Shown here: one piece after another, positions 21,395 through 56,567 of the stretch | Layout of the letters: each line of letters opens with the position of its first letter | How positions within the stretch are numbered: the stretch's first letter is position 1 | Assembly: GCF_003790525.1 (NCBI RefSeq) | Contig: NZ_CP033635.1 | Strand: one strand, 5' to 3' | DNA length: 64,000 bases | Origin: Escherichia coli | Lineage (GTDB): Bacteria; Pseudomonadota; Gammaproteobacteria; Enterobacterales; Enterobacteriaceae | The notes under the pieces: model-generated | Databases searched by the model: none | Told to the model about the DNA's origin: nothing | The model's input: the letters and a program-made list of their open reading frames with translations, nothing else | Translations under genes and position numbers: made by a program

Positions 21395-21457
21395 TGTTAG
21401 CTTTTATATCCTGTTTTAAATACAAAAGCCCCGCTGCCGGGGCTTGTCATGTGCGTA

Positions 21458-26022: not shown

Positions 26023-26292
26023 CTTTTGCACCGTTCGTGATAATACCGTAAATAAGCCTCTGAAAGTTATAGGATATGACACAACTAAAGAAGTCTGTGT
26101 GAACCGCGTAATACCAAGTGAATTGCTTGTTATATCTGTTTAATTAAACCTAATCGACCAGCCTTACTGGAGAGGCTGGTTAGTGATTAACTGGGAGTAT
26201 TGCAATTAGATGTGTTCTACAGGCCCACGAAGGTAGATGGCTGCCAGAGTTCATCTTCGCGTGTAAAAGACTCTTAGTTGATTAATTCTAAT

Positions 26293-26559
26293 TTATCGAT
26301 CTATTACGCGATCATAATATTCGATGATTTGCAGTGCAACAGCAGCAATTTGTACTGCTTCCTCCCTACTGGTACCGGCTGCTTTACCACCAAAACGATC
26401 ATGGAGGACAGCCTGATGAAATTCTCCCACCTCTTCTCCGAGAATCGCTCCCCAGATAAAAGGATCTTGATTACGGTCTGCCCCCCATTTGGCATCCTGC
26501 CGTTGCATTTCCGCTAGCACGTCAGACAGGGCTTTAGTGTCTTGATGTTTACCTTTCAT
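26293..26559 (-). CDS. MazG-like nucleotide pyrophosphohydrolase-domain protein (small)
   Basis: About 88 aa from internal ATG; WGADRNQDPFIWGAILGEEVGEFHQAV resembles MazG EExxE helix. Confidence 0.4.
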   Translation of the reverse strand: MKGKHQDTKALSDVLAEMQRQDAKWGADRNQDPFIWGAILGEEVGEFHQAVLHDRFGGKAAGTSREEAVQIAAVALQIIEYYDRVIDR

Positions 26560-26702
26560 GTTTCCCTTACGAATCCGTGATTTTAAGTCCATCATTAACA
26601 TTTAATATGTGCAGAGTCCATTAATTCGCTACATCTCATTTTGTGAATGAGCGTTGAGTTTGCTATAAACGTAGCAACCAAGAAAAATAAAAGTGGATAA
26701 TT

Positions 26703-27029
26703 TTGTTCATTACCTTTCAAAGCAAGAAGTTAAGGACTATTTGCGAGAGTATGCATGAGGCAAATGAGATCTTTGGTGACAAAGTGGCATCAAGACTACG
26801 CTCGCGACTTTCCGATCTTTCCGTGACAGACAACATATTACTGTTGCCCGTAGGTTCGCCGGAGGTCTGCTTTGAGGATGGGGAAGAGTGTATTACAATT
26901 ACCATTCTCGGTGATGTAAAAATGGGATTTGTCTGTGGGAATACAGTTCAGCCCAAAAATCAAGATAATACAATTAACTGGTCCCGAGTTAGCCGGATAC
27001 GGTTAGTGTTCATAGGTGACGTGAAATGA
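26703..27029 (+). CDS. HigB-like (RelE/ParE superfamily) putative toxin
   Basis: 108 aa; N-terminal FQSKKLRTICE...VASRLRSRLSDL pattern resembles HigB (FKHKGLKRL...KLRRIL); 4-nt overlap with downstream HTH-peptidase gene. Confidence 0.35.
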   Translation: MFITFQSKKLRTICESMHEANEIFGDKVASRLRSRLSDLSVTDNILLLPVGSPEVCFEDGEECITITILGDVKMGFVCGNTVQPKNQDNTINWSRVSRIRLVFIGDVK

Positions 27030-28108
27030 TAGTTACGCAGGACTTCCAGCCTGACTGGGTATCTCCACCCGGTGATACAATTATAGATCTAATGGATGAA
27101 CATGGGCTTTCTGGTGAAGAACTGAGTAAGAGGATTGGATTGTCTCTTATCCGGGGTCAGCAACTTCTTGAAGGAAAAATCCGACTCAATGAGTCTCTGG
27201 CTTGTAAGCTTGAGGAGTTATTCAACGTATCGACAGACTTCTGGATCAAGCGCGAAGTCGCTTATCGCCAGCAAATTGGATACCTCGAGAAAGTGAATAA
27301 TGATTGGCTCGAATCATTGCCTGTACGTGATATGATGGAGTTTGGTTGGATCCCCAAAACTACAACTCGGGAAAGTAAATTCCAGCACTGCCTATCGTTT
27401 TTCGGAATAAATTCCGTCAATGATTTTTTTTATAAAATTCAGTCAGATGCTCCTTTGGTCGCTTTTCGTAAATCTCTTAATCTGGCAACCGAGCCTATGG
27501 CCGATTTGGTGTGGCTGACTAGGGCTGCACAACTTACCTCAAACCAAAACTGTGCTGTATGGGATAAAGAGGGGCTGATAGCATTGTTGCCAGAACTGCG
27601 CAAAGCTACAAATGAACCCGACATGAGGATTTTTATCCCTTACATTCGCGACCTTCTCGCCACTGCTGGAGTTTCTCTCGTTGTGTTGCCAACGCCAAAG
27701 GGATGTCGGGCAAGTGGTGCTACCTGCTTTTTTACACCAGATCGCGCAACCCTAGTCATGAGTTTCCGTTATCTGACCGATGACCATTTTTGGTTTACGC
27801 TGTTTCATGAGATTGGGCATCTCATCTTGCATGAAGCTGTCCGAGTTCGCGTAGAAGGTAAAGATAGTCTTTCGTCGGAAGAGGAAAAGGAAGCAGATAA
27901 ATTTGCCGTTGATGTTCTTATCCCAGAAGAATACCGGCAGCAACTTAGTCGCTATGGTGTCCGGCATTGGAAAGAGATCATCCGGTTAGCTAGGAAAATG
28001 GGGGTATCCAAAGGGATCGTACTGGGATATTTGCAGCATGAAGGTAATATACCTTTTTCTCACCTTAATCGGTTTAAAGTGAGATTCCGTAAAGAAGATA
28101 TCGTCTGA
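27026..28108 (+). CDS. HTH (XRE) domain fused to ImmA/IrrE-family zinc metallopeptidase
   Basis: N-terminal HTH (GLSGEELSKRIGLS), C-terminal HEIGHLILHEA (HEXXH) with downstream acidic residues; 360 aa. Confidence 0.7.
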   Translation: MIVTQDFQPDWVSPPGDTIIDLMDEHGLSGEELSKRIGLSLIRGQQLLEGKIRLNESLACKLEELFNVSTDFWIKREVAYRQQIGYLEKVNNDWLESLPVRDMMEFGWIPKTTTRESKFQHCLSFFGINSVNDFFYKIQSDAPLVAFRKSLNLATEPMADLVWLTRAAQLTSNQNCAVWDKEGLIALLPELRKATNEPDMRIFIPYIRDLLATAGVSLVVLPTPKGCRASGATCFFTPDRATLVMSFRYLTDDHFWFTLFHEIGHLILHEAVRVRVEGKDSLSSEEEKEADKFAVDVLIPEEYRQQLSRYGVRHWKEIIRLARKMGVSKGIVLGYLQHEGNIPFSHLNRFKVRFRKEDIV

Positions 28109-28110
28109 TA

Positions 28111-29055
28111 TCAGCCGCCGAAATAGACATAACGGTCAGGTGATTTCTGCCAGTTGCACAACGCATCTTCAATAACCTGCATTCTCAAGTAGGGTGCAGG
28201 AATAATTGCCGCAAGGTCAGCTAGTTTTTCATTCAATACGTCTATTGTGTCACCAGCAGTCCGGCTATTGCTGAAAAGTAGCCGGCTTCCTTGAAGGGGC
28301 CCGGTTGCTCCATTCAGAAAAGCATGACCCGGCTCTACATCCAGAAGTCCCGTTTTCTTGAGCATAGTTAGGTAATCAAATTTTGCGGTTCGTCCAAATG
28401 AGATCACGGCATTTAGCCCTGAATACAATAGTTCGAATAAAGATTCTGGTGAAGATGAAAAGCTCTTGGCCTCTGCAAACCTAGCCTCATGACTGTGTGT
28501 AGCACCAATGAATCCGATGTAAGAGCGAAAAACCGCAGGTATTGAACGACGAGAGTGATATTTCTTCGTTTCATATTTCCGATGGTTACCATATTGTCTT
28601 AGGCTACTGTTAGCTGTCAACTCATCAGAGACGCTGGCGAACCATTGTTCAAAAGCAGCAAAGTCATCAGTTATCGTATCCCATGTCCACGTTTGTGTAC
28701 CGAGTCCACTGTATATATCTCGACACAAAATCCAGCCGGTTTTGTTACTCTTGCCGAAATGTGTGGCAAGGAAAACCAGCCAGCAGGCTTCATCGTAATT
28801 GTTGTCACGAAGATAAAGGCAGGCAGCGCGGAGAGGATCAAAAACATCAGAATTCGGCTCTTTTCGTAACGGAGTCATATAATCGGTCCGTAATGCAAGA
28901 GTTTCCACATAGCGTATACGACGTATACTGTCGATAATCTGACAGGCTAAAACATCAAAGCAGGCAGGAGAACTTAGGCCATTTAGGTTGTGTTCATTGC
29001 GGCTAAAATTTTGCAAATTACTAACCAGCTGACTGATTTGATTATGTCTTTTCAT
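28111..29055 (-). CDS. hypothetical 314-aa protein co-operonic with thymidylate-synthase-like gene
   Basis: 4-nt overlap with upstream TS-like gene; no family recognised by eye. Confidence 0.5.
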   Translation of the reverse strand: MKRHNQISQLVSNLQNFSRNEHNLNGLSSPACFDVLACQIIDSIRRIRYVETLALRTDYMTPLRKEPNSDVFDPLRAACLYLRDNNYDEACWLVFLATHFGKSNKTGWILCRDIYSGLGTQTWTWDTITDDFAAFEQWFASVSDELTANSSLRQYGNHRKYETKKYHSRRSIPAVFRSYIGFIGATHSHEARFAEAKSFSSSPESLFELLYSGLNAVISFGRTAKFDYLTMLKKTGLLDVEPGHAFLNGATGPLQGSRLLFSNSRTAGDTIDVLNEKLADLAAIIPAPYLRMQVIEDALCNWQKSPDRYVYFGG

Positions 29056-30032
29056 TGTAGTCTTCCTTCAAAAATAAACCGATATTCCTGATTTTTCATT
29101 GCAGCCAACTCTTGGAAGGCTAGTCCTTTGTGGTTGGGTGTATGTGAACGTAACAAAAAGTGGATTTTTAATATACGCAATAAATCCTTCCAGTAGTCAT
29201 TCAAGGAAGTAGTGTCAATATCAAATTCCTTATTCTCTCGAAGAGCTTTTTCTGCCTCAAGCAGGGGTAAGATATCATCTAAGGAATGCATTTCAGGCAT
29301 CGATCCCATGACTGGTAGGGTGCTCATGAACCCCTCTTTCTGAAGAGCCTTCACTTTTTCTAAATCATTTTTATAGAGATGTAGGCTGGATACAAAGTGA
29401 TGATAGTGACCCAATTCGCATCCTATCAAGCGGGCAACTAATTCCTGTAGCATCGTGAACGCAAATACATCATGAGGCAGCCCCATAAAGGCATCGTTAG
29501 AACGCATACAAACAAATAGATGCAGCTCTTCACATCTGACAATAAACTGCATAGATATTGTACAAGGAATATCTACGTATTCTCGCTGTTCAGTTTTTGA
29601 GGGCACCAAGTCTGAGGCATCGAAAAGCTGTATTACTGCACGTCTGGTAGGTTTTTTCTCCTGCAAAAGGTTGATAACATTTTTTAGCTGATTATATAAA
29701 CCACGCATATTAAACAACCGTGGCCCGTAACCACCATGTATTTTCCCATCTGACTCAGCGGATTCAGCGTAACGTGGTATGAAGTGTTTTATAAACTCAA
29801 GATCGTTCTGAGCTGAGAGATACCACAGAAATTCACCTAAGCAACTAATTAGTTTTCCTCGGGATTCTGTTCTACTTATTCTTCGGCGGGGGTCGGTAAG
29901 GACAAGATAGGCACCAAGAATCTCTAGAGTTGATCCTTTTGTAGGATCGTTACTGAGTCCATCCGCTAGGATAGCTTGATGAACATCGTTTATCAGATCG
30001 TCAACACACTCAGCCGTTACCAAAAGAGTCAT
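29052..30032 (-). CDS. thymidylate synthase / pyrimidine hydroxymethylase family enzyme
   Basis: Catalytic-Cys region DIPCTISMQF (cf. PCHxxxQF), MRSNDAFMGLPHDVF (cf. RSxDxFLGLPFN), LHLY; 326 aa, longer than ThyA. Confidence 0.7.
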   Translation of the reverse strand: MTLLVTAECVDDLINDVHQAILADGLSNDPTKGSTLEILGAYLVLTDPRRRISRTESRGKLISCLGEFLWYLSAQNDLEFIKHFIPRYAESAESDGKIHGGYGPRLFNMRGLYNQLKNVINLLQEKKPTRRAVIQLFDASDLVPSKTEQREYVDIPCTISMQFIVRCEELHLFVCMRSNDAFMGLPHDVFAFTMLQELVARLIGCELGHYHHFVSSLHLYKNDLEKVKALQKEGFMSTLPVMGSMPEMHSLDDILPLLEAEKALRENKEFDIDTTSLNDYWKDLLRILKIHFLLRSHTPNHKGLAFQELAAMKNQEYRFIFEGRLQ

Positions 30033-30199
30033 TTTCTACCTTTTCCTGTATGGTAGTAACTAATCATTACCACCTGTATGGCATATAGTCAATATAGTAT
30101 CAATATCAACATGGTTCACAGGGTAAGTAAGACTTGATCTTACCCAGCAATAGTGGACACGCGGCTAAGTGAGTAAACTCTCAGTCAGAGGTGACTCAC

Positions 30200-30498
30200 A
30201 TGACAAAAACAGTATCAACCAGTAAAAACCCCGTAAACAGCATTCGCCTGAATTTCTCAGTGAAGCCCTGAAACTTGCTGAACGCATCGGTGTTGCTGCC
30301 GCAGCCCGTGAACTCAGCCTGTATGAATCACAGCTCTATGCGTGGCGCAGCAAACTGCAGCAACAAATGAGTTCGTCAGAGCGTGAAAGTGAACTGGCCG
30401 CTGAAAATGCCTGCCTGAAGCGGCAACTGGCGGAGCAGGCAGAGGAACTGGCTATCCTCCAAAAGGCCGCGACATACTTTGCGAATCGTCTGAAATGA
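30200..30498 (+). pseudogene. insE: IS3 orfA, apparently frameshifted
   Basis: From ATG 30200 the frame stops after 23 codons (MTKTVSTSKNPVNSIRLNFSVKP*); the OrfA-like body (KPRKQHSPEF...ATYFANRLK*) is in another frame; an A-run is one base shorter than expected. Confidence 0.55.
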
Positions 30499-43266: not shown

Positions 43267-43506
43267 GGGGGCTTCTATAATAATAATAATCGAGCATGAG
43301 TCTCATACGGATGCTCGGGTCGAAAGGGAATCCCCAGGCGAGTAACCTGTTTGCGGTGATCCATTAGCTGCAGGAGCAGAATAGCATACATCTGGAAGCA
43401 AAGCCAGGAAAGCGGCCTATGGAGCTGTGCGGCAGCGCTCAGTAGGCAATTTTTCAAAATATTGTTAAGCCTTTTCTGAGCATGGTATTTTTCATGGTAT
43501 TACCAA

Positions 43507-44073
43507 TTAGCAGGAAAATAAGCCATTGAATATAAAAGATAAAAATGTCTTGTTTACAATAGAGTGGGTTTCCGGTGCTCCTTTGACACTCTCTCCATAT
43601 CCCTCAGGTCCGGCACCAACAGATACCACGTTATTTTCTCCCGACACCTGTGAGCCATGGCCCAGAGCTACAGAGCCTGAAGAATTTTCTATTCCAGCCC
43701 ATCCCCCAATAGCAACACTCTGCTGTGAATTAAGTACCTCAGCGCTCTTACCTATGGCAACACCATATTTTGACTCAGCCTGACCGGCATCCCTTCCCAG
43801 GGTGACACTGTGTGGAGAATTATACACTCCCGAAAAAGAGCCAAACTGAAGACTTCCTGGTGAATCCATGTTAAAAGCGCCACCTCCCAAAAGGAAAGTG
43901 TTATTAGCTGTACCAGTTGAATTCGTAATAAAAGAGTTTTCTCCAATCAGTAAGCTGGAAGAATTAGCATCAACAGGCCCTGTCAAAACAGCCTGAGCCT
44001 GAGCCGAGAGCAGCAGGGCCACACTCACTGCCAGCGCGCTTTTCTTTAAAAAAGCATCACGTCTTTTAAGCAT
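43507..44073 (-). pseudogene. YadA-like (trimeric autotransporter) adhesin gene, N-terminal fragment
   Basis: Signal peptide MLKRRDAFLKKSALAVSVALLLSAQAQA then head-repeat-like SVAIGGWAGIENSSGSVALGHGSQVSGENNVVSVGA; ORF ends abruptly near the resistance module. Confidence 0.5.
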
Positions 44074-44561
44074 TCTGTTATTCTCCTGTATTATTACTTC
44101 ACCAGCCAGAACGGTAGTGCGGAGCAAAAATACAGTGATAAGAATCCTCTTTTATTAATTTAATAATGCCAGGAATATTATTGTGTATAATATGCGACCT
44201 CAATTTAAGCAGCAGAAAACGACTGGCATTAAAATCATTAAATTATAAACATATACAACTTTGTAAAGGTGGTTATAATAAACCTGATTACTTTAACGTC
44301 TGTATACCTGCACTGCTGATATCACAAAACAATAAAAATCCTGGTTAATATCTCTGATGATTGAATGAGAAATTCACGATGTCTGGTGAGAATTCTGTTC
44401 AAAACGAGGAATGCAGACGTACATGTGGCAGGCATGGACTTCTACCAATTTAACTTTTTTCCTTCCTTGTATTTACACATTGCACATTTTGCGCTACAAA
44501 AATTTCACGTGGCACGCACCACGTGATCCGTAGAAAAGCCTCTTGTTACGAATTTCGTAAA

Positions 44562-44592
44562 CCGCACGTCTGTCTGGTCGTGCGGATTTTTT
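44562..44592 (+). terminator. rho-independent terminator-like hairpin
   Basis: ccgcacg-tctgtctggt-cgtgcgg followed by attttttat. Confidence 0.4.
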
Positions 44593-44812
44593 ATCCGTCA
44601 ACTTCACATGAAACCCGCCAGAGCACTGTTTCCGGATTCAGACATCAGGCATATTATTATCCACGATGTCGTGAACAAGATCACACTTTTGCAATTCCTT
44701 TATTGATCGAAAGCAGTTAATCACGGAAATTAATTACCGGAGTGAAAGCATTTGCTATATAAACATTCCCAGAAGACATCTTCATGTTGAATATTATTCC
44801 CTTATTGACTAG

Positions 44813-44845
44813 CCCCTCTGACAGAATTTCAGAGGGGGTTTTTTA
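44813..44845 (+). terminator. rho-independent terminator-like hairpin
   Basis: cccctctga-cagaatt-tcagagggg followed by gttttttat. Confidence 0.45.
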
Positions 44846-44949
44846 TCAGTTTCACCATCCAACCCTGTACGCCAGAATGGTTTCACTGTCACTCAGTTCT
44901 GCTATTGCCTTTTTCATCTCCCTTTACCTTACGTTCTGCCAGAGTCTGA

Positions 44950-45040
44950 GCCATTTGAACAGGAGGTTATCATTGATATCGTGTTCCCGGGCAATACGGG
45001 CAACAGAGGCTCCTGGTTGCAAAACCAGTTTAACCATTTG
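44950..45040 (-). pseudogene. remnant of an IS transposase orfA-like HTH region
   Basis: Minus-strand translation GASVARIAREHDINDNLLFKWLRLWQ is typical of IS orfA HTH helices; short, flanked by stops. Confidence 0.35.
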
Positions 45041-45300
45041 AAGTTTAACTCATTTGAAAATGATCTGCGGGGTTCTGCGGATAATGTTTTTGCTCCATAA
45101 CAGGCGCCCACCAGTTTGAAAAGGTGGGCACCTACGTTACCAATACTGGCTTAATGGATACATACGGCGGTCGGTTCTTACGGTAAAACGACACAACCAA
45201 ACGCTTCTTATCCTGCAATGAACTGCTTTATTACCGAGTTTAGTGACCGCACAGACACTCACTTTTAAGAAAAACAGAATGGTAAACAAACTCCATGAAT

Positions 45301-45490
45301 TACAATAGCTCTCTGGCTGCCGCCACAATAGCTTGCGCGGTTAACCCGTACTCTCTCTGTAAAAAGTCCTGAGTTTCAACCTGGCCATACCGCTCTTTAA
45401 CCCCCACCCGACGCATGGGCACAGGACAAGTTTCTACAAGCACTTCAGCAACTGCTGAACCTAATCCATTATGAATACGGTCATGACTCC
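45301..45490 (-). pseudogene. transketolase-family C-terminal fragment
   Basis: Minus-strand translation ...GLGSAVAEVLVETCPVPMRRVGVKERYGQVETQDFLQREYGLTAQAIVAAARELL* matches transketolase C-terminal domain end; 5' part replaced by IS1-like remnant. Confidence 0.5.
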
Positions 45491-45499
45491 AATTAGTTG

Positions 45500-46140
45500 A
45501 ATTAGGGGTATAATAGCCACTTTTAAGGTTCTTTCATGGTCACAGTTAACCTTCATTGCTCCTGTTGCCAGTCCGTTCAGGTTTACCGTCACGGGAAGAA
45601 CCCAAAGGACATGATCGATTTCGCTGCCGTGACTGTCATCGAGTGCTTCAGCTCACTTACCGTTACGAGGCCCGTAAACCGGGAGTTAAAGAGCAAATCA
45701 CTGAAATGGCTTTCAACGGTGCCGGAGTTCGCGATACTGCCCGTACGCTGAAAATCGGCATTAATACTGTCATCCGGACTTTAAAAAACTCTCGCCACGA
45801 AGAATAACGTCATACCCGGTCGCTCATGCTGATATGGCTCTCATCTGCGAACTTGATGAGCAATGGAGTTTTGTCGGCAGTAAAGCGCGACAGCACTGGC
45901 TCTGGTACACGTACAACACGAAAACTGGTGGCGTTCTGGCCTACACTTTTGGCCTACGGACTGATTAAACCTGTCGTGAATTGCTGGCGCTGCTTGCCCT
46001 TTTACCATCGGTATGTTGACCACTGACGAATGGGGTAGTTACACCAGAGAGTTACCGAAGGAGAAGCATCTGACTGGTAAGATTTTTACTCAGCGCATTG
46101 AGCGCAACATCTACCTCTGAGAACCCGAATCAAACGTCTG
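45500..46140 (+). mobile_element. divergent IS1-family element remnant (insA- and insB-like frames interrupted)
   Basis: CSCCQSVQVYRHGKNPK / RFRCRDCHRVLQLTYRYEARKPGVKEQITEMAFNGAGVRDTARTLKIGINTVIRTLKNS (InsA-like, split by frameshift) followed by InsB-like ELDEQWSFVGSKARQHWLWYTYN... with stops. Confidence 0.55.
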
Positions 46141-47156
46141 GCCCGCAGAACTATCTGTTTCTCGCGCTCTGTAGAACTTCATGAAAAAGTCATCGGTGCC
46201 TTTATCGAAAAATATATGTTCTACTAATTGGAGTCACCACCTTCGTTTGTTTAAAGAACCTGCTGGTCCTGCCATTAATATTACCTGCTGATTGCTTCAC
46301 ATCCGGATTCCTCGCACTGCGCGCGGGTTATTGTTTCGTTTTCGGCCACGGGGTCGCCAGGGCTCTGTTTGCAGGCCATGATGGCCTGACCTGTACTGTT
46401 TCTCAGGCACTGAGATGTCCGTTTACGCCATTTGTTCCCGGATATCCTTAACCTCTGACGTTTGTTCCCTGCCCCTCTGTCTGATAACGAATACGCTCAC
46501 AACGCACAGTACTGAACAATACCGACAACAACATGTCTTACATGAAATTCGCTGTAACATCCACCGGAAAACATTTTCAGATATCGGATGAGGTACTACT
46601 TCCATTGACAGCGCGAGGTAACAAAATTGATGGTAACTCTGACCATTAACCGTAAACCGCAGGGTATTTTCAGTAAATCACCGGCAACGCCGCTGCAGGA
46701 TAAAACGGACACAGCATACAAAATGAAGGCCGGTGACCAGATACCACAGTTGAACGATAAACAGAAACCTGCTGATAAAACACCGTGGCGACATGACAAA
46801 ACGCCAGAGCAAAAACCGTAAGCGCATTATTCGTCTTGTGGAACTCTGGCCTGAGTCATTCAACCGGGAAAAAAACAAAACCACTTAAAGTGGGGATACC
46901 TGACGACCTGATACAGGATATCGCCATCCGAGAACTGGCGTTTGGCGCTGGTACATTACATGCAGCAGTGGCGTCTTATGTGCAGTCTCCGCGCTATTAC
47001 CGTGCGTTAATAGCAGGTGGCGCCCGTTACAACCTGAACGGTCAGCCGTGCGGGGAAGTGACACCACAGGAACAGAAAGAGGCAGAGACCCGTTTAATGA
47101 TGCTGAATGACCGACGAAAAGCCAGAAAACCTCGTTGACTGCACAACTGCGCTGAT

Positions 47157-47705
47157 TCACTGAGCTGTAATCAATGTACAGCGCTGTACCGGACGATGGG
47201 TAATGGCGATCACAACCGGTAACCCCAGAGACAATGCGACTGTTTTTAACGCAACATACTGGCCAGATGTATCACCCCGGGCAACCCGAAAACACCTTTC
47301 AACCTGGCATTGTCCGCCAGCGCTTATCACCTTCCAGGTCTGTTGCAATAAATCCACCCGTTGCGAACATTCTTCATCAACCGTGGCACTGGCCCGCGGA
47401 TGGCAAATGCTCGTCTGGCTGAGCAGCAACAGGCATCGTATTGTTGCTCCTCCATGTTGTTCCCGCAACCAGCGTAATACCACCGGCGAGGATGGACAGG
47501 CAGTGTGATTACGCTCAGTAATACGTTCGTGCACCTGTCGGTAAAAGGAAGTACAGAATGCCTGAATCTGTTGCCCGTTGATGTTTCCTTCAGCCGAATG
47601 GAGCGTGAAGTGGACTGCCAGCAGACGCGGCCAGTGGTCCACCGCCTGCTGAACAAAACGCCGGATGTCTCCCGGCTCTGAAATTAAGGCTTCGGTTATT
47701 TGCAC
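47157..47705 (-). CDS. hypothetical protein (CP4-like island)
   Basis: 182-aa ORF adjacent to alpA-like gene; no family recognised. Confidence 0.3.
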   Translation of the reverse strand: MQITEALISEPGDIRRFVQQAVDHWPRLLAVHFTLHSAEGNINGQQIQAFCTSFYRQVHERITERNHTACPSSPVVLRWLREQHGGATIRCLLLLSQTSICHPRASATVDEECSQRVDLLQQTWKVISAGGQCQVERCFRVARGDTSGQYVALKTVALSLGLPVVIAITHRPVQRCTLITAQ

Positions 47706-47973: not shown

Positions 47974-48210
47974 TCATGCTGCTGCTCCTCGTGATTCCTC
48001 AATTCGCTGCTGCATCCACTGCTCCACTTCACTTTTGTACCAGCGGCTGCTGCGGCCCAGCTTGATGGGTTTCGGGAAATGGCCTTCACTGATCAGCTTG
48101 TAAAACCATTTGTCGGTCATACCGGTGAAACTGGTGATGTAGTTCATGTCGATCAGGGGATCGTCAGCACGCAGCAACACGCTGTCGTGGCCTGTCATTG
48201 AGGTCAACAT
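47974..48210 (-). CDS. alpA: AlpA-family phage transcriptional regulator
   Basis: ...ITSFTGMTDKWFYKLISEGHFPKPIKLGRSSRWYKSEVEQWM resembles AlpA HTH; true start probably internal. Confidence 0.6.
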   Translation of the reverse strand: MLTSMTGHDSVLLRADDPLIDMNYITSFTGMTDKWFYKLISEGHFPKPIKLGRSSRWYKSEVEQWMQQRIEESRGAAA

Positions 48211-48278: not shown

Positions 48279-48852
48279 TCAGAGCTGGCCTGCTACGGGA
48301 TACCAGGGATTACCGGCGAGGTAACGGGCTTCCGGATCGCGCACACCACGACGATCGCGGGCGAAATCACTGAACGCCCATATCAACTCTTTGAGGATGT
48401 CTTCGCAGTCCGGTGAACGACTGTCCAGCACCACATCCCGTGTTATCTGCTTCTGGTACGGTGCCGCTTCACCCGGTGACGCGAAGCCCAGTACGTTGCT
48501 CCAGGCATCCAGAATCAGCCGGTCCAGTTCAGGGCCATCGAAATACTCCTGTCTGACGCATAACACCACGTGGTATTCCGGTTTTTCAGGATGACGGGTC
48601 AGGAGCCAGCAGAGGTCACGTCCGGGTGTTGCATTCATCAGCGCACTGACGGTTTCGATAAAATCCATACCGAACCAGATTTTTCTGTCACTGAAGGCGT
48701 TGTCATGTTCCCACGGCAGACGAAGCAGGATCCGCCGTACCCGGGAGCAGGACTGTTCACGCAGCGCACGGTTGAGAACACCGATGATTTTGTTCTGATA
48801 AGACGGCCAGAAGGGCGCCAGGCTATAGTCGAAATGAGGGATACCATTCATA
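48279..48852 (-). CDS. YfjJ/YagK-family (inovirus Gp2-like) protein, paralog 1
   Basis: About 190 aa; family resemblance to the two paralogs at 49135 and 54086. Confidence 0.5.
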
Positions 48853-49134
48853 AGATATGCTCCATATGGAAACGCACGACGCATCCCCGCCAGCGAAAGA
48901 CGAGCGTATGGTGAAACTGAAGGCGTCGTGTACTGAGATTGTTGATGTGATAACCGTGGAACCGGGGATGGCAGATGTCGTATGCCAGGACAGTCAGGAG
49001 ACCAGACAGGTGTAAAATTCCTGAGGTGGGTTTAAGGTGAATGATCTCCGTTGACTTCAGTTCACATCATTAATCAGGGCGGTAGATTTTTACCGACGGA
49101 GTGTTTCCAGGAGCGGAGGCTCAGGCCTTAAGCT

Positions 49135-49701
49135 TCAGAAGTGAGGCTTACGAGGACGCCCTGCAGCAGGACGCTCAGGAACTTCACTGCAGCCGTAGGC
49201 ACACAGCCCGTCTTTTTGCTCTTCTTTCGCCAGATAATGCAGGGCACCGCGAATATTATCGATGCTTTCAGGATCGTTGTGGCGCACAGGAATGTTGATG
49301 TTGTATGTATAATGCGGCTGATATGTACAGCGGTGTGCCGAACCGCTGTTATGCGTAATAGACTGCCAGCATTCCGTAATCCGCTCCGCAAAGGGATATA
49401 TTTTTTTAACCCTCTGACGATCGAGCCAGAAAACCGCATGCGCATGAAAACCATGATCAGCCGTCCATTCAATCACCCAGAAGAAACCAACGATATTTTC
49501 AAATTGTTCCACCTGCTCCAGCAGCATACGCAACTGCAATTCAAGCCAGCGATGATCAGGTTGTAAGAAATCAGGCGTATCTTTCCTGTAGAAGAAATCC
49601 ATGCGTAAGGCCCGCAGACGGGAATAGCGTGCGACCAACTGATTGATGTGATTGTCAAGTAAAGCGGTAAAAAACCAGTTTGGTGTGTAAGATTTAGGCA
49701 T
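49135..49701 (-). CDS. YfjJ/YagK-family (inovirus Gp2-like) protein, paralog 2
   Basis: 188 aa; ...HGFHAHAVFWLDRQRV... motif typical of the family. Confidence 0.6.
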   Translation of the reverse strand: MPKSYTPNWFFTALLDNHINQLVARYSRLRALRMDFFYRKDTPDFLQPDHRWLELQLRMLLEQVEQFENIVGFFWVIEWTADHGFHAHAVFWLDRQRVKKIYPFAERITECWQSITHNSGSAHRCTYQPHYTYNINIPVRHNDPESIDNIRGALHYLAKEEQKDGLCAYGCSEVPERPAAGRPRKPHF

Positions 49702-51296
49702 GCTGATGACTCCTGAAAGTTAATGACGTTTTAAGTGCTGTAAACGAATTAATGCTTTCGCTCATAATCAGATCTAAAACGGTAATAACTTACAGACGGT
49801 ATTTATCAGGCATGCTGTAACAGAATGGATACGTCGGTTATTAACGACACGTAGCGTTGTGCAGAAATAAATGGATTATCTGATGGTATTAGCTAAAGAG
49901 ATGAGATAAACGAGGAGTGAATAAAATACAGAATCAATAAACATCACGAAATACTGCAAAATATGCGATAAAAACCCACGATCAGAAGTTCAAGAAACAT
50001 ATTACGACTAATCACCATCATAAATTACAAACTTGCTCTCAATGGTTCTAAAAAACCGTGTACAAGGCCAACACGATACCTGTAACCCAATAAACTTACA
50101 CGCACTCATTTTATCTGTTAAAAACAACTCATGTTCAAGATATGAACGTTAACGGGTACACGGTACCAGAATGAAACATACCATGGATGGATAATTTTCA
50201 TTTTATTTAAAATACAAGATAATCAGGAACGAACAAACACAATCAGAAATTCACTCTATTAATTCTGTTATTTACCCTGCTCGGCTAATCGTTACAGAAT
50301 AATGGATACCTTATTAAAGAGTAAGCATTCAGTTAATCAGTGATGACAGAAGTATTGATATTTACCAGAATGGTTAAAACATATCAGATAAACAATCATT
50401 GTTAAGCAAATACAGCTCATGATGGATAAAATTAAAATAAATTATTATTTTACTGAAAACAGGAACAGATGGATATCAGCAATAGCGTAGTAGAGAATAA
50501 CTTATCTGAGTATCATATGAGTTACAGTAGTTATGATTGAGGAATGGAGAAGGTGGATACCATGATAATGGTGACAATGAAGATTAGACAAGGAAGGGAG
50601 TGAATATAACTGGATGAGAATAAGAGTAATGGAATGTGTAAAGACAGAGAGGGAAAATGAAGGGCAGAGATGGATGATAAATAAAGGGGTAGATACTAAT
50701 TATAGTAATAAACCTAAATTAAAATTATCCATGTTTGATGAGTAAAAATAAGAAATCATCCGTTCTGAATACGAACATGACAAACCATTATCTTACAGAA
50801 AAAATATCAAATCATTTTTCTTCACTCTCCTATTGAAATGCAAACTTGAACAGCATCTCTTTTCAGTAACAGTGATAACCATTCGTTATTCAGGCAGAGA
50901 CCGACATTATCATATACACCTACACTCATCACGACGAAAATCAAACGAAGTTATATATGAAAACTCACACAATATGGTTAATGATTAGCTTTAATCTATG
51001 TTAAAAATAATCTTTCGATTCACTTTCGATCAATAAAAAACGAAAGCCATGCTTCCACCAGTGCGCACACTCCTGTATTCAACCAGCTCTGACAGCAGGT
51101 CATTATGAAAACAAAATTAAATCACAGATGTGGTGCATGTGCTGCTACTGTTGCTACCGTAGCGGTTTTTTCAGAGAAATTCTCATTCCCCCCCATAATT
51201 GGTGAACATTTGCATAGGTGCAGGATATGCAAAACGCCTTATCACCAACCTCCGAATGAAGGTTGGTTGATTTTGTTTTATCTGTGTAAGGTTATT

Positions 51297-52901
51297 TCAA
51301 AATAAGCTATACTCTGAAAAAGGTGACGCAAATGACGGAATTAATTCCGGTGGAATATTAACGTGATATGCTTTCGCTTTATGAATATTCTCGGGTAGAA
51401 CAATATCAAACTGTTCGTAATACATTGCGCCTAAAGGAAGGAGGTAACCATTGTTACAATAAACAGAAACATAAAGTGCCTGATGCGATCGCATTCTGAT
51501 GATACATAAATACCCCTGACAGATTAACTGATTGAGTACAGGTGTAAGTTTTTCTGCTCTTCTCAGTCGATTGGGACCATATCTTTCAATGTCTGTTTTC
51601 CTGATAGCACGCCAATTATTCTGCCTTATTCGGGTCATAATCCATGCATACAGTTCACAGGCATCCTGTTCAAACTGGCATCGTGCAGACATGGGATAAA
51701 ATATTGTGCTCGCCTCCTCCAGATACCAGTCCATGAGATGCATAGCTTTAAAAAGCGCAATTGATTCAATTTCCTCAGCATCTTTATAGCAATAGCAGGT
51801 GAATATTCCAGCTATCCTCAGTATATTAGAACCTGCTTTCAGAACAATATCTCTGATGTGTTCCCACTCCCCGCCTGCAAGCGCTTTTCTTTCAATCTTA
51901 ATCTGGTTTTCCTGCCACTCCCCCAACGCTTTCTTCGCAAGTTTTAATGTCTTCCTTTCGGTGCTCATGCCGGGGAAATTAATGTTGTGGTTTAACAGGA
52001 ATCCGTTAATCTTTTTATGAAAGTTCTCCAGGGTTGATATTGTTCTGAACTCACCTCTCGTATAATCACGTATCCAGGAAGAACTTACAACCTGACTGAA
52101 CAGAAACCGGGAAAGAAATCCGCTTCCCCACGCCAGTACGTCATTTTTATTTATATAATTCGTAAAGACATCCGGCTGAGACATTAACGAAAATGTCAGA
52201 CGTGGCGCGATATGGTATTTCTCGTCAGCCCGTCCAAAATCAAACGGTTGCCCACTCCATGCTTTATTCAACAGGCCCGGATAATTTTTCAGATAGCTTC
52301 TGAAAAAAGTGACCGCCTCATCAGAAATAACCCCTGCCTCAGGATGTTCATTGAGCCCTTCCACAAGCGCTTTAAGCGAAACATCTTCATAGATAAAATT
52401 CGGTCGAACCGGACGTGTCGGTTTATTTCTTTCGTGATTACGCAGCGCCTCTTCTTCCTGTTCCCCCGGATACCCCCGGTTAACAACCTTTCTTAAATTG
52501 GCAGCAAGCGCTTTCTGCCGGGTATTCCAGATCTGTAGTTCAGTCTTATAATCTTTGTTTCTCTCTTCGTATTGTTGAATGAGTCGATCGGCAAATTCGT
52601 AACAGGGGTTCATCACCAGTCTGTTTATCGTTGTTTTTCCCGCGCCTGGCTCTGCGATTGCCAACAGATAAAGTGAGCAGGGTTCCGGCATGTTGGTGTG
52701 AGGATGAACAACGTCAACCAATGACTGACAGGAGAGTGAGAGCGTTGCCAGTACAGTATTAAAAATGAGCTCCAACGGAAGTTGGGTACTTTCATATAAG
52801 TCGTCAATGAGATACGCAAGCTCACTAGGAAATAATCTGTAGGTTAAATCAGCTGGGAAGTGGTGGGATGTCTGCAAGGATTGCACATAATCGGGATTCA
52901 T
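51297..52901 (-). CDS. DUF3987-like protein (YfjI-like; putative primase/helicase-associated)
   Basis: Start taken at second internal ATG (MNPDYVQSL) preceded by AGGAGG; P-loop-like AIAEPGAGKTT; about 534 aa. Confidence 0.5.
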   Translation of the reverse strand: MNPDYVQSLQTSHHFPADLTYRLFPSELAYLIDDLYESTQLPLELIFNTVLATLSLSCQSLVDVVHPHTNMPEPCSLYLLAIAEPGAGKTTINRLVMNPCYEFADRLIQQYEERNKDYKTELQIWNTRQKALAANLRKVVNRGYPGEQEEEALRNHERNKPTRPVRPNFIYEDVSLKALVEGLNEHPEAGVISDEAVTFFRSYLKNYPGLLNKAWSGQPFDFGRADEKYHIAPRLTFSLMSQPDVFTNYINKNDVLAWGSGFLSRFLFSQVVSSSWIRDYTRGEFRTISTLENFHKKINGFLLNHNINFPGMSTERKTLKLAKKALGEWQENQIKIERKALAGGEWEHIRDIVLKAGSNILRIAGIFTCYCYKDAEEIESIALFKAMHLMDWYLEEASTIFYPMSARCQFEQDACELYAWIMTRIRQNNWRAIRKTDIERYGPNRLRRAEKLTPVLNQLICQGYLCIIRMRSHQALYVSVYCNNGYLLPLGAMYYEQFDIVLPENIHKAKAYHVNIPPELIPSFASPFSEYSLF

Positions 52902-54085: not shown

Positions 54086-54817
54086 TCACCTGCCATCCAG
54101 TAGACGCCCCGGCCCACGACTGCAACCATAATTACGTTGCCCAGAACCGTCATGCTGCTTCGTCTCATACTTCACGAGATAACAGGCTCTCTCCATGGCT
54201 TTCTGCATCGCTTCCACATCACCACGCTTGACCCAGAGAACAGCGGCTTCACCCGGCTTTTTGTCTGAAGCCTTCCTGGTTTCAGAACATCCACCCGACA
54301 AAGGCGTATCATCGGAAGAAGGGCGAGCATCAGATGATGTCGGTTTACGGAAAGGCGTCCGCCTGGAAAAATGAACCAGTCCATTACCCTGCCAGGGCTC
54401 GAGATGCAGAGCACTGCACCATGCCAGCTTGATCAGCGTCGCCAGCGAAGAAGGAACGGTGAAATCCCCTGGCGAGCACCAGGTATCTTTGTTGAGCAGT
54501 AATATCACGTGATAATGTTTCCTGCCTTTTTCCTTGCCAAACTCCCGACACCAGAAATAACGCAGAGTGGTTGCACGCACACGCTTGTTGGCACGTCGTT
54601 TTTTCCGCTGGTAAGCCTGAATTTTTGCTTTCAGGGATTCGAAAAAACGAGAAATCACTGCTGAATCTAAATCGGTATCCATAATAGTGGCAGGCATATA
54701 CTCAGGAAAACGTAAATCCACCCGAATTAACGAGACGGCACGGTGCTGCACTAGGGCACTGTCGAGAAGGCTGTCAAAACGGGATAACCAGTAAGCATTG
54801 TGTATTGGTTGATTCAT
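54086..54817 (-). CDS. YfjJ/YagK-family (inovirus Gp2-like) protein, paralog 3
   Basis: 243 aa; ...KGRKHYHVILLLNKD... motif typical of the family. Confidence 0.6.
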   Translation of the reverse strand: MNQPIHNAYWLSRFDSLLDSALVQHRAVSLIRVDLRFPEYMPATIMDTDLDSAVISRFFESLKAKIQAYQRKKRRANKRVRATTLRYFWCREFGKEKGRKHYHVILLLNKDTWCSPGDFTVPSSLATLIKLAWCSALHLEPWQGNGLVHFSRRTPFRKPTSSDARPSSDDTPLSGGCSETRKASDKKPGEAAVLWVKRGDVEAMQKAMERACYLVKYETKQHDGSGQRNYGCSRGPGRLLDGR

Positions 54818-55669
54818 GATGAGAGATCTCCGTTGATTTGGATTGACTTCACATCATTAATCACTGCGGTAAAACTTTACGGCATCCCGCCATTGAGCAA
54901 CGCCAATGGCTCCTGATTAAAACAGAATGAATCCCCCACGAAGAAAAGATAAACCTACACGCAGGGTAAAACACACAACAACGGCATAAATGGTTTTTAA
55001 AAACTACAAAGCCCGAAGGGAAACGGATCAACAGAACGTGCAAACAAAACACCAAAAACGCAATCAGAACGCTTTCTGCTGCTGTGAATCAACAACAATA
55101 CCAAAACCTACAGCTTAACCACAAAACTCAATCACAGAGCCGAATAGCGCGTTTAAAACCTGTTTACAGATAACCCTGCCCCGAGAACAAAAACCACCAA
55201 CATCAGAATCGATTTTCTTATCCTGAAAACGTTACTTTTCAACACACCATAAAAACGATTAACCATCGATAACGTAAATCTCATCTGAATCAAAACACCA
55301 GAACCAATCATCACGCTTTTTCTGAAAAGAGCCTTATGATGAAGATAATCACCTTGCACTGAGAAAAAACACCAGGGCCAGTTAATCATCTCATCAATCT
55401 CATCGTTACAAAATCATCCATAAAACCATTTAACAAAATCATCGTAAGCACACAGTAAATCACGCCAGGTTATCTCAGCCGGATTTGCGTTTTACATAAA
55501 AACACTTGTCTCAGGTTAACGACTAAAAACACGAAAACTCATAAAAGGTTAAATGTAACATCAGAAAAATAGAATATCATATTGATTGCTTAAACAGGAA
55601 AGATTGTTTTGTAGTAGCATTAAGCTGATTTTAGTTAACGTAAAAACAGGACTGACAGGTTTACTAAAC

Positions 55670-55890
55670 TGGATGTGTATCAGACAAAGCAATGTGTATA
55701 ACAATACTTAATGAAAACACTTGTAGAATTGTTTATGAAAACATGTGTATGTCTGGTAAAACACTTAGTAGAAAATACGTGTATAACACTTACTGAAATG
55801 CTTAGTAAAAACACTTAGTAAAATATGTGTAGAATTATCTATTTAAAAAGATATGTATATAACACTTAATAAAAACATGTGTATATAGTA
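55670..55890. repeat. degenerate direct repeats (iteron-like) in AT-rich ORF-free region
   Basis: Recurring modules tgtgtat(a)aacacttagta / gtagaatt at about 55674, 55693, 55744, 55764, 55792, 55811, 55826, 55861, 55877. Confidence 0.5.
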
Positions 55891-56567
55891 TCATACCGAC
55901 ATTCTCAACATCTTCAGACACTCATGCAGACTGAATGTTCGTTTCAGTTTTTCACGGCCAGCATGGGGATTTTTGTTCTGAAAACGGAGCAGATTTACTC
56001 TGGAATTATTTTTCTGTCCCCGTATTTCAGGCCCCAGAAAAGACAATCCGAAGCAAACCGTTTGTCAGCTTCCATATCATCTTTTACCCCCGGAAAGTGA
56101 TCGCGTTTTACAACCAGAATGACAGCCATACTGATTATGTCGTCTCCCGGCCCCCTTCACATATAACATGCATGCCTGTCATTGCTTACTGCTCCACATG
56201 ACAGGATTTCACATACAGGATGCGCATTCAGTGTTTTTATCGCCACTATAACAGACAGATTACTGTCGCTTTTACTCTTCAGATTGTTAATCTGACCACA
56301 AGAACAGTCGAACAGTACAACGACACACCCAAGGAGGATATGAGCAGTAGTTGATAGCATGTTTTAATTTATTATGAATAGATCAAGAATAGATCGTGAA
56401 TAGTTAGAGAATAGTTCTTCAGCATCTCACAGAGTGATCAAGCCTTGAAGTGATTGCTTTTTGAACACAAGTCCGGATGCAATGTTTTTTTGTTAACTTC
56501 CTTGCATATTCGATTTCCATGTGATAGTGAAAATCACCAGAAGAGAATGCGATTGAGGCGTAATCAG

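What the first reader, a model, noticed from the sequence alone, without database searches (positions are those of the whole stretch)
49740..51100. 1.3-kb AT-rich ORF-free region with purine-rich plus strand
No ORF of 60 codons or more on either strand. One stretch (about 50470-50700) is strongly A+G-biased with repeated gatgag / atgg units. This could be an H-NS-silenced spacer, a decayed gene or a non-coding RNA locus.
Basis: seen in the sequence. Interest (0 to 1): 0.3.

Follow-up and report, generated by a model that had tools for sequence, protein, structure and literature searches.

The report
Expanded leader upstream of island Rep-like gene
The flagged stretch is truly non-coding DNA in an E. 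coli genomic island; most of it is fast-evolving AT-rich filler, but its far end holds a short control element, conserved across genera and followed by a pyrimidine-rich tract, that heads a replication-nuclease-like gene and is probably that gene's promoter/operator.

Summary
Window 49702-51296 has no ORF of 60 codons or more and 29-35% GC. Positions 50524-50693 are the most purine-biased 170 nt in all 64 kb.

It is not a decayed gene (indels not in threes, no codon periodicity, no six-frame Pfam hit). It is not a structured RNA (no Rfam hit, no folding z-score below -2 inside the block, no strong covariation).

The gap lies between a YfjI helicase-like gene and a 188-aa YagK/YfjJ ("inovirus Gp2") gene that keeps HUH and Tyr motifs. 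About 1 kb always travels with that gene, in 1,572 of 5,426 E. coli genomes.

Most of this block diverges at or above the gene's synonymous rate, and natural variants have lost 200-360 nt.

Both recur in Citrobacter, Enterobacter, Salmonella and Mixta, where they lie only ~120 nt from the start codon.

Best reading: a promoter/operator core plus an expanded leader that is probably silenced by H-NS and Rho, possibly controlled by the module's AlpA-family protein.

Main rival: a nick site or origin for the HUH protein.

The parts
49135..49701 (-). 188-aa YagK/YfjJ ('inovirus Gp2') gene with intact HUH (HAHAVFWL) and Tyr (YLAKEEQK) motifs. This is the gene that the non-coding block always accompanies.
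   Evidence: Pfam PF11726 at 28.3 bits (cut-off 25.8) and PF23343 at 24.9 bits. phrog_7120. Motifs in the family alignment. AF2 model pLDDT 83, with weak fold hits to HUH nuclease domains.
49702..49960 (-). Gene-proximal leader, the best conserved long segment. It holds the SD AGGAG (49714->49710) and an imperfect 21-nt inverted repeat (49713-49733 / 49775-49795). 49702-49830 is kept in all the length variants examined.
   Evidence: Pairwise divergence 0.072 against 0.105 at 4-fold sites. 34-43 invariant columns per 50. Inverted repeat I2. Deletion map.
49961..50529 (-). AT-rich variable middle of the leader, with dispersed ATGGATA and TACCAGAATG repeats. It is dispensable in part: natural variants lack 49831-50188 or 50174-50379, with the deletion ends at those repeats.
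   Evidence: Divergence 0.13-0.18, at or above the synonymous rate. No coding signal. No structure. Deletion variants. No significant internal duplication.
50530..50696 (-). Pyrimidine-rich, G-poor, structure-free tract on the gene strand (33% C, 5% G, 42% U). It carries YACTC direct repeats, and its length varies through indels and tandem-repeat expansion.
   Evidence: It is the most skewed stretch in the window, with a C/G ratio up to 10 against a 99.9th percentile of 4.2. MFE is -3.5 to -7 kcal/mol per 120 nt. YACTC occurs 5-7 times per 190 nt against 0.85 in shuffles in most alleles, and 3 times in this allele. Composition is kept in 9 alleles. C-rich leaders also occur in other classes.
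50697..50722 (-). 26-nt conserved core TTAATTTAGGTTTATTACTATAATTA. It has a perfect -10 hexamer TATAAT (50704->50699), which implies a start near 50692. The conserved block TTTAGGTT sits where a -35/-10 spacer element would lie.
   Evidence: Invariant in 9 E. coli alleles. It is the only part of the gap similar to relatives that were found by protein search. It occurs once per locus, always in gene sense. It is followed by a yfjJ-like gene in nearly every metagenome locus with enough downstream DNA (three exceptions: L026, L100, L137). Diverged copies lie upstream of the L029- and L100-type paralogs.
50723..50757 (-). AT-rich flank upstream of the core (CATCAAACATGGATAATT), shared by most E. 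coli alleles. Homology with other loci ends within this zone, at scattered points.
   Evidence: Breakpoints at about 50724, 50727, 50745 and 50747-50757. 24 upstream-flank groups.
50758..51296 (.). Distal spacer, conserved only where a YfjI gene is the neighbour. It holds terminator-like hairpins (51059->51039 on the minus strand; 51147-51166 and 51244-51267 on the plus strand) and a probably spurious 66-aa ORF (51105-51305).
   Evidence: About 74% identity in the YfjI-linked loci L005 and L017, unrelated elsewhere. Terminator scan. Minus-strand fold z = -4.5 at 51211-51330.
51297..52901 (-). YfjI-family (DUF3987) helicase-like gene upstream of the gap.
   Evidence: PF13148 E 2.4e-73. phrog_2373 'DNA helicase' E 9e-42. 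RefSeq annotation.
47974..48210 (-). 78-aa AlpA-family protein in the same module. It is the candidate regulator acting at the core.
   Evidence: PF05930 at 40.8 bits (cut-off 21). PHROG excisionase/regulator families. 66% identical to the AlpA-like protein of the compact-class modules.
48279..48884 (-). Protein of unknown function (201-aa ORF, annotated as 190 aa) between the yfjJ-like and alpA-like genes. It is a conserved member of the module.
   Evidence: No Pfam, PADLOC or PHROG hit. Present in all E. coli loci inspected.

Best explanation
The gap is the untranslated upstream region of a small operon (yfjJ-like HUH gene, unknown gene, alpA-like gene) in a tRNA-Phe genomic island.

Its functional cis-element is a 26-nt core at the far end (50697-50722, minus strand). 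The core combines a perfect -10 hexamer with a conserved sequence block just upstream of it. I read it as a promoter with an embedded operator or loading site.

Transcription from about 50692 would first produce a roughly 170-nt C/U-rich, G-poor, unstructured RNA, which is the complement of the purine-rich stretch. It would then cross about 0.8 kb of AT-rich untranslated leader before reaching the ribosome-binding site.

Such a leader is an ideal Rho loading and termination substrate, and the AT-rich DNA is an ideal H-NS substrate. The operon is therefore expected to be off by default.

The module's AlpA-family protein is the best candidate for switching it on at the core, by analogy with AlpA of P. 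aeruginosa.

In sister lineages the same core and C-rich tract sit about 120 nt from the start codon. The E. coli lineage has therefore expanded the leader with 0.5-0.9 kb of largely unconstrained, deletion-tolerant DNA.

Shown: non-coding status, the conservation pattern, the core, the composition and the gene association. Inferred: promoter activity, Rho and H-NS silencing, and AlpA control.
For: 1. The region is non-coding and unstructured.
2. The core is the only segment conserved with relatives whose protein is about 50% identical, and those relatives were found independently by protein search.
3. In about 120 metagenome loci the core is always in gene sense and is followed by a yfjJ-like gene. 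The distance is fixed at 118-127 nt in one class and 615-1030 nt in the E. coli class.
4. TATAAT or TATTAT is kept in five paralog classes.
5. A related motif upstream of K-12 yagK is a published RNAP-sigma70 binding site, TTTAGA-16-TATAAT, in an H-NS-bound spacer (PMC3946193).
6. The tract right after the core has the highest C/G ratio in the window (10 against a 99.9th percentile of 4.2) and almost no structure. C-rich, G-poor leaders recur in other classes.
7. The middle diverges at 0.13-0.23, against 0.105 at 4-fold sites, and tolerates 200-360-nt deletions.
8. No terminator-like hairpin was predicted on the gene strand between the core and the gene.
9. The module encodes an AlpA-family protein. 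P. aeruginosa AlpA acts at an element between -35 and -10 and carries RNAP through terminators in the 5' leader (PMC7969949).
Against: - No acceptable -35 hexamer lies at 16-18 nt from the TATAAT in either class, and the consensus scan does not call the core a promoter.
- No transcript data were available, so the start site and strand are inferred.
- The core does not match the P. aeruginosa ABE (GGGACGN5GGTA).
- The AlpA family also includes plain excisionases such as TorI.
- H-NS motif matches are not enriched.
- In the compact class the core sits inside a hairpin followed by U5 (z = -2.65). That hairpin could instead be the terminator of the upstream ORF.
- The yagK/yfjJ motif alignment is loose.
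- The invariance of the core in the metagenome loci is partly by construction, because they were found with the core pattern.
Confidence: 0.5

Rival explanations
1. The core plus the YACTC repeats form the cis site of the adjacent HUH protein: a nick site with a binding locus. This would be a rolling-circle origin or an oriT for the excised island. The AT-rich DNA would serve as an easily melted region.
For: - The 188-aa protein keeps HUH and Tyr motifs and matches Rep families.
- Rep genes usually lie next to their origin.
- The core is better conserved than the protein, as nic regions often are.
- In the compact class the AT-rich core lies in the loop of an inverted repeat, GGGGAGTG/CACTCCC.
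- Direct YACTC repeats follow the core, 5-7 against 0.85 expected.
- The second Gp2 gene in the window also has an upstream array of direct repeats, TGGTGKTTTT five times.
- A helicase-like gene lies immediately upstream.
Against: - The inverted repeat is absent in the E. coli class and takes uncompensated changes in L065, L068, L075 and L010.
- Junctions with foreign DNA do not fall at one nucleotide.
- DnaA, IHF, Fis and GATC motifs are not enriched, and the repeats show no helical phasing.
- The fold match to HUH domains is weak, TM 0.35-0.46.
- No nick-site homology to a characterised origin could be shown.
- A promoter and an origin can overlap, so this rival is not exclusive.
Confidence: 0.2
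2. The region has no function of its own. It is hitch-hiking AT-rich filler in a recently spread island module. The conserved core is merely the remnant of the intergenic terminator/promoter region of an ancestral arrangement.
For: - Most of the block evolves at or above the synonymous rate of the neighbouring gene.
- Large deletions and tandem-repeat expansions are tolerated.
- The block is confined to E. coli and a few plasmids.
- In the compact class the hairpin plus U5 looks like a terminator.
Against: - The core survives unchanged across lineages with 50% protein identity, and in five paralog classes.
- Every rearrangement retains the sequence up to about 50724.
- The pyrimidine bias is kept while the sequence changes.
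- A leader of at least 615 nt persists despite the deletional bias of bacterial genomes.
Confidence: 0.17
3. The region encodes a regulatory non-coding RNA. One option is an A/G-rich plus-strand RNA with many GGA/GGAG motifs acting as a protein or ribosome sponge. The other is a C/U-rich minus-strand sRNA.
For: - Strong strand asymmetry.
- 19 GGA on the + strand against 3 on the - strand in the block.
- Plus-strand terminator-like hairpins at 51147-51166 and 51244-51267 could end a plus-strand transcript.
Against: - No Rfam hit.
- No stable or conserved structure.
- The GGA count on the + strand is near the window-wide density.
- The tract is the least conserved part, with indels.
- The ATGGAT copies mutate freely from G to A between alleles.
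Confidence: 0.06
4. The region is a degraded protein-coding gene.
For: - Relatives carry a 197-207-aa ORF directly upstream of the core.
- The gap is gene-sized.
Against: - That ORF lies on the other side of the core and leaves no tblastn trace anywhere in the window.
- There is no Pfam hit in six frames.
- There is no codon periodicity, and indels are not in threes.
- tblastx against the relatives' upstream regions is negative.
Confidence: 0.03

Closest known systems
AlpA-dependent promoters of Pseudomonas aeruginosa (PalpB, PPA0807; Pena et al. 2021, PMC7969949; Wen et al. 2022, PMC9371919)
   Same: A promoter carries a conserved regulator-binding block between the -35 and -10 positions. A long 5' leader that blocks transcription precedes the first gene. 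An AlpA-family (PF05930) protein is encoded nearby.
   Different: The core does not match the ABE motif GGGACGN5GGTA. No -35 is recognisable. No intrinsic terminator is predicted in the E. coli leader, where the block would have to be Rho- or H-NS-dependent. The 78-aa protein is only distantly related and could be an excisionase. Nothing here has been tested experimentally.
K-12 yagK promoter (TTTAGA-16-TATAAT, H-NS-bound spacer; Shimada et al. 2014, PMC3946193)
   Same: It lies upstream of a paralogous YagK/YfjJ gene in a cryptic P4-type island. It has an AT-rich element with a perfect TATAAT preceded by (A/T)TAGGT and followed by TACTC. RNAP holoenzyme binding was shown in vitro.
   Different: In the present core TTTAGG is only 8 nt from the TATAAT, not 16, so it cannot serve as the -35. 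The yagK leader is about 190 nt, not about 1 kb. The proteins are about 20% identical, and the DNA alignment is loose.
Double-strand origins of rolling-circle replicons and CRESS-DNA/geminivirus intergenic regions
   Same: An HUH Rep gene lies next to a short, highly conserved AT-rich sequence with flanking inverted repeats (compact class) and nearby direct repeats. In those systems the promoter and origin can overlap.
   Different: The hairpin is not conserved in the E. coli class. No known nick sequence was recognised. The element sits in a chromosomal island rather than a small circular replicon. The distance to the gene reaches 1 kb.
Rho-dependent attenuation in long 5' leaders, and H-NS/Rho silencing of horizontally acquired DNA in E. 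coli (established knowledge)
   Same: A C-rich, G-poor, unstructured, untranslated RNA segment longer than 80 nt is followed by a long untranslated stretch. The DNA is AT-rich island DNA.
   Different: No termination or binding data exist for this locus. The assignment rests on composition alone.

Membership tests
Sigma-70 promoter | -10 hexamer close to TATAAT | tested here: met
   A perfect TATAAT lies at 50704->50699 on the minus strand. TATAAT or TATTAT is kept in all E. coli alleles and in five paralog classes.
Sigma-70 promoter | -35 hexamer (at least 4 of 6 matches to TTGACA) 16-18 nt upstream | tested here: not met
   TAATTT in the E. coli class and GAAAAT in the compact class. The consensus scan reports no promoter at the core in either class.
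Sigma-70 promoter | Mapped transcription start or RNAP binding | not testable with these tools
   The only data are for the paralog yagK (gSELEX, PMC3946193).
AlpA-type antitermination unit | AlpA-family protein encoded with the unit | tested here: met
   PF05930 at 40.8 bits against a cut-off of 21 for window 47974-48210. It is 66% identical to the counterpart in compact-class modules.
AlpA-type antitermination unit | Conserved binding element between the -35 and -10 positions | tested here: inconclusive
   The conserved TTTAGGTT(T/A)ATTA block lies immediately upstream of the -10. It has no similarity to GGGACGN5GGTA, and binding is untested.
AlpA-type antitermination unit | Terminator(s) in the 5' leader upstream of the first gene | tested here: not met
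   No intrinsic terminator is predicted on the minus strand between 50697 and 49702. Only rut-like composition is present.
Rolling-circle origin / HUH nick site | Adjacent gene encodes an HUH endonuclease with a catalytic Tyr | tested here: met
   HAHAVFWL and YLAKEEQK motifs are aligned across the family. PF11726 is above its cut-off and PF23343 is just below (24.9 against 27.8 bits). The fold hits are weak.
Rolling-circle origin / HUH nick site | Conserved hairpin presenting the nick sequence | tested here: not met
   A hairpin is predicted only in the compact class (-15.8 kcal/mol, z = -2.65). The E. coli copy does not fold (z = 0.03). The arms take uncompensated changes.
Rolling-circle origin / HUH nick site | Direct repeats (bind locus) near the nick region | tested here: met
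   YACTC occurs 5-7 times per 190 nt against 0.85 in shuffles in most alleles, and 3 times in this window.
Rolling-circle origin / HUH nick site | Strand-specific cleavage by the cognate protein | not testable with these tools
   This needs a biochemical assay.
Theta-type / iteron origin | DnaA boxes, IHF sites, GATC clusters, phased iterons | tested here: not met
   All counts are at or below shuffle expectation. Rayleigh R is 0.15 for helical phasing of ATGGATA.
Rho utilisation (rut) site | At least 70-80 nt of C-rich, G-poor, unstructured RNA | tested here: met
   The tract is 33% C and 5% G with 47 YC dimers in 170 nt. The C/G ratio reaches 10, the maximum in the window. MFE is -3.5 kcal/mol per 120 nt.
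Rho utilisation (rut) site | Rho-dependent termination observed | not testable with these tools
   This needs bicyclomycin or Rho-depletion transcriptomics in a carrier strain.
H-NS-bound xenogeneic DNA | AT content well above the genome average | tested here: met
   GC is 0.29-0.35 against about 0.50.
H-NS-bound xenogeneic DNA | High-affinity nucleation motif (TCGATAAATT-like) enriched | tested here: inconclusive
   There are 6 matches at up to 2 mismatches, against 4.1 +/- 2.1 in shuffles.
Structured non-coding RNA (Rfam families) | Match to a covariance model, or conserved structure with covariation | tested here: not met
   No Rfam hit lies in the gap at E<=1. Folding z-scores inside the block are no lower than -2. 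The covariation term for the compact leader is only -1.2.
Pseudogene | Residual protein similarity or codon-like evolution | tested here: not met

The most novel reading that the evidence does not exclude
The 26-nt core with its YACTC repeats is a dual promoter and nick site, the hitherto unknown cis-acting site of the YagK/YfjJ 'Gp2-like' HUH proteins. These proteins belong to the conserved core of a very widespread class of integrase+AlpA genomic islands. An AlpA-family protein would switch on transcription through a silenced leader. The HUH protein would then nick at the core to replicate or mobilise the excised island.
Probability: 0.12. Interest if true: 0.7.

Novelty: new member of a known kind. 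Interest (0 to 1): 0.35.

Why it matters
Gp2-like (YagK/YfjJ) proteins are among the most common core genes of enterobacterial and pseudomonad genomic islands, yet papers that mention them call their function unknown.

A short cis-element that is better conserved than the protein itself, and is always placed in front of the gene, gives a concrete handle. It can be used directly in reporter fusions, DNA-binding assays and nicking assays. These would tell whether the islands carry an AlpA-controlled, Rep-driven replication or mobilisation module.

For annotation, the result shows that about 1 kb of unannotated DNA in roughly 29% of complete E. coli genomes is an expanded, mostly unconstrained leader. 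It is neither a missed gene nor a missed RNA.

Tried and rejected
- **Pseudogene.** Rejected by tblastn of the relatives' upstream ORF, six-frame Pfam, indel and periodicity tests, and tblastx.
- **Structured RNA.** Rejected by Rfam at E<=1, sliding-window z-scores on both strands, and RNAalifold on the compact leader.
- **CsrA-sponge idea.** Dropped, because plus-strand GGA density is near background and the ATGGAT copies are not preferentially conserved.
- **Theta-type origin.** DnaA, IHF, Fis and GATC counts and helical phasing were all negative.
- **Leader built by internal duplication.** The best self-alignment scored 24 against a null 99th percentile of 25.
- **Precise transposon or att end at the homology boundary.** Rejected because the breakpoints scatter over about 35 nt, and the terminal string occurs only once in the window.
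- **Phage or satellite origin.** There was no match in the phage records or in IMG/VR.
- **O157 Sakai SpLE1 as a route to transcriptome data.** It lacks the block.
- **PADLOC.** It gave no defence-system assignment for the module.
- **Long upstream spacer as a family trait.** K-12 yfjJ and yagK have gaps of only 152 and 271 bp.
- **Fold search of the HUH protein.** It was only weakly informative.
Full report
**Context.** The window matches E. coli chromosomes at 100% identity, for example strain MRY15-131. It is a tRNA-Phe-inserted island carrying afa-8 adhesin genes, a type I restriction system, sul2/tetA/floR resistance genes and CP4-type core genes. The flagged stretch lies in a 1,595-bp unannotated gap, 49702-51296. 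On one side is a YfjI-family DUF3987 gene (51297-52901, minus strand; PF13148 E 2.4e-73; PHROG 'DNA helicase' E 9e-42). On the other is a 188-aa YagK/YfjJ 'inovirus Gp2' gene (49135-49701, minus strand).

**Observation.**
- The longest ORF inside 49740-51100 is 51 aa.
- GC is 0.29-0.35.
- 50524-50693 is the most purine-rich 170-nt stretch of the whole 64 kb (75.9% purine, z = 4.8).
- ATGGAT occurs 8 times on the plus strand, against 0.77 expected.

**Not a gene and not a structured RNA.** None of the 1,572 (of 5,426) complete E. coli genomes that contain a homologous stretch has any annotation over it. I aligned nine alleles that are about 80% identical. In that alignment:
- only 7 of 38 indel events are multiples of three;
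- variable sites show no 3-periodicity;
- stop-free runs are no longer than in shuffled sequence.

Six-frame translations hit no Pfam family. Rfam finds nothing in the gap at E<=1. No 120-nt window inside the conserved block folds better than z = -2 on either strand, and the purine-rich stretch is almost structure-free.

**What travels with what.** About 1.03 kb (49702 to about 50735) always abuts the start codon of the yfjJ-like gene. What lies beyond varies from locus to locus: YfjI, a sugar kinase, a TIR protein, an H-NS paralog, IS elements, or a restriction enzyme. K-12's own yfjI-yfjJ and yagL-yagK gaps are only 152 and 271 bp. The block is absent from phage records and viral contigs.

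**Constraint.** I used the 4-fold degenerate sites of the adjacent gene as a yardstick (mean pairwise distance 0.105). The segments of the block compare as follows:

| Segment (window) | Mean pairwise distance |
|---|---|
| Gene-proximal, 49702-49960 | 0.072 |
| Middle, 49961-50529 | 0.13-0.18 |
| Purine-rich stretch, 50530-50699 | 0.23 (up to 0.43 against this window's allele) |
| Last 28 nt, 50700-50727 | 0.063 |

The purine-rich stretch is full of indels and tandem expansions, yet it keeps 72-76% purine and 2-5% C in every allele.

**The key result.** I found relatives by searching with the protein. They come from Citrobacter, Enterobacter, Salmonella diarizonae and Mixta, at about 50% amino-acid identity. 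The only part of the gap with nucleotide similarity to their upstream regions is 50661-50722.

Read in gene sense, this is a core, TTAATTTAGGTT(T/A)ATTA(C/A)TAT(A/T)ATTA, followed by a C/U-rich tract. In those relatives the core lies in a 170-nt gap after a 197-207-aa ORF, about 120 nt from the start codon.

A metagenome scan with the degenerate core returned 120 loci. In nearly every locus with enough downstream DNA (three exceptions: L026, L100, L137), a yfjJ-like gene follows on the same strand.
- With the 'compact' protein type the distance is 118-127 nt.
- With the E. coli type it is 615, 711, 791 or 870-1030 nt.

The short E. coli variants lack 49831-50188 or 50174-50379. The deletion ends fall at the ATGGATA and TACCAGAATG repeats.

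Diverged copies of the core, each keeping TATAAT or TATTAT and an upstream (A/G)GGTT, precede two further paralog classes. Leaders in four of the five ~190-aa classes are clearly C-rich and G-poor (C 0.34-0.39, G 0.04-0.15). The L100 class is only mildly so (C 0.25, G 0.17).

**What the core is.** It contains a perfect -10 hexamer (50704->50699) but no acceptable -35, and the consensus scanner does not call it a promoter.

A related motif upstream of the paralog yagK (GGATAGGTATTATATAAT) coincides with a published constitutive sigma-70 promoter, TTTAGA-16-TATAAT, in a spacer listed as H-NS-bound (PMC3946193).

A strong -10, no -35 and a conserved block in the spacer position are what a factor-dependent promoter looks like. 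The module encodes an AlpA-family protein (PF05930, 40.8 bits). That protein is better conserved between the two classes (66% identity) than the HUH protein is (50%).

In P. aeruginosa, AlpA binds an element between -35 and -10 and then carries RNA polymerase through terminators in the 5' leader (PMC7969949).

A transcript starting near 50692 would begin with 170 nt of 33% C, 5% G, unstructured RNA. This has the highest C/G ratio in the window, 10 against a 99.9th percentile of 4.2. About 0.8 kb of untranslated AT-rich sequence would follow. From established knowledge of Rho and H-NS, that is a textbook substrate for Rho loading and for H-NS binding.

I therefore favour a silenced, factor-activated promoter-leader unit whose leader has been expanded in E. 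coli.

**Main rival.** The 188-aa protein keeps the three Rep motifs: RMDFFY, HAHAVFWL and YLAKEEQK. HUH nucleases act on a site that is usually next to their gene. Several features fit a nick or bind origin:
- In the compact class the core lies in the loop of an inverted repeat, GGGGAGTG/CACTCCC (-15.8 kcal/mol, z = -2.65).
- The tract after the core carries 5-7 YACTC direct repeats, against 0.85 expected, in most E. coli alleles.
- The window's second Gp2 gene has its own upstream repeat array.

Several features count against it:
- The hairpin is missing in the E. coli class and shows uncompensated changes.
- Junctions with foreign DNA do not fall on one nucleotide.
- Classic origin motifs are not enriched.
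- The fold match of the AlphaFold model (pLDDT 83) to HUH nuclease domains is weak.

A promoter and an origin may overlap, as they do in geminivirus intergenic regions, so the two readings are not exclusive.

**Verdict.** The feature is real. It is explained as an upstream regulatory region whose bulk is unconstrained. The purine-rich stretch is the complement of an ancestral C/U-rich tract next to a newly recognised conserved core. The papers retrieved that mention Gp2-like proteins call their function unknown, and I found no description of this element. Promoter activity, silencing and AlpA control remain untested inferences.

Noticed in passing
window 54818-56453, especially 55045-55534 (minus strand): The second Gp2-family gene (54086-54817) also has a roughly 1.6-kb upstream stretch with no long ORF. 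GC falls to 0.27 and the strand skew is strong. It holds five gene-sense copies of TGGTGKTTTT within 490 nt, where about 0.1 is expected. It is not homologous to the flagged gap.
   Followed up: partly
L012:3320-3400 and other compact-class loci (L007-L011, L027 and others): In the compact class the core sits inside a hairpin, GGGGAGUG...CACUCCC, followed by U5 (-15.8 kcal/mol, z = -2.65), directly after a conserved 197-207-aa ORF of unknown function. This could be a terminator with a promoter in its loop.
   Followed up: partly
window 51211-51330 (minus strand): A strongly structured stretch (z = -4.5) spans the YfjI stop codon. A plus-strand terminator-like hairpin lies at 51244-51267, and an inverted repeat spans 51167-51187 / 51301-51321. 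Its function was not examined.
   Followed up: no
window 47157-47705 (minus strand): This 182-aa protein aligns with the Gp2 family but lacks the HUH and Tyr motifs (ATIRCLLLL in place of HxH). It looks like a degenerate, probably non-catalytic paralog, and it is conserved in the module.
   Followed up: partly
plasmid loci L015 and L019 (H60-H67): Eight conjugative IncK/IncF/IncI plasmids carry only the distal about 360 nt of the block (window 50377-50736). It is cut by an IS66 element on one side and lies upstream of the siderophore receptor gene ireA on the other. Again the sequence is retained up to the core.
   Followed up: partly
L012:1737-2276 and 3489-4061: The Enterobacter wuhouensis locus has two yfjJ-like genes in tandem (48% and 50% identical to the E. 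coli protein), separated by alpA-like and 207-aa genes. This suggests serial accretion of these modules.
   Followed up: no
window about 43500-47500 (L001 6508-10706): A frameshifted ProQ/FinO-family gene and IS1/transposase fragments lie just downstream of the module. Next to them a sul2-aph-tetA-floR resistance cluster is inserted into the island.
   Followed up: no
window about 16900-32500 (L002 4278-20091): The island carries a run of likely anti-phage or nucleotide-metabolism genes: a dGTPase-family protein, thymidylate synthase, MazG-like protein, DEAD/DEAH helicase, type I R-M subunits and a SIR2-family protein.
   Followed up: no
L013:2151-3483 (Budvicia aquatica): A 39%-identical yfjJ-like gene also has a roughly 1.3-kb ORF-free, AT-rich upstream region. 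It has no recognisable core and no similarity to the E. coli block, so it is an independent case of a long spacer.
   Followed up: partly
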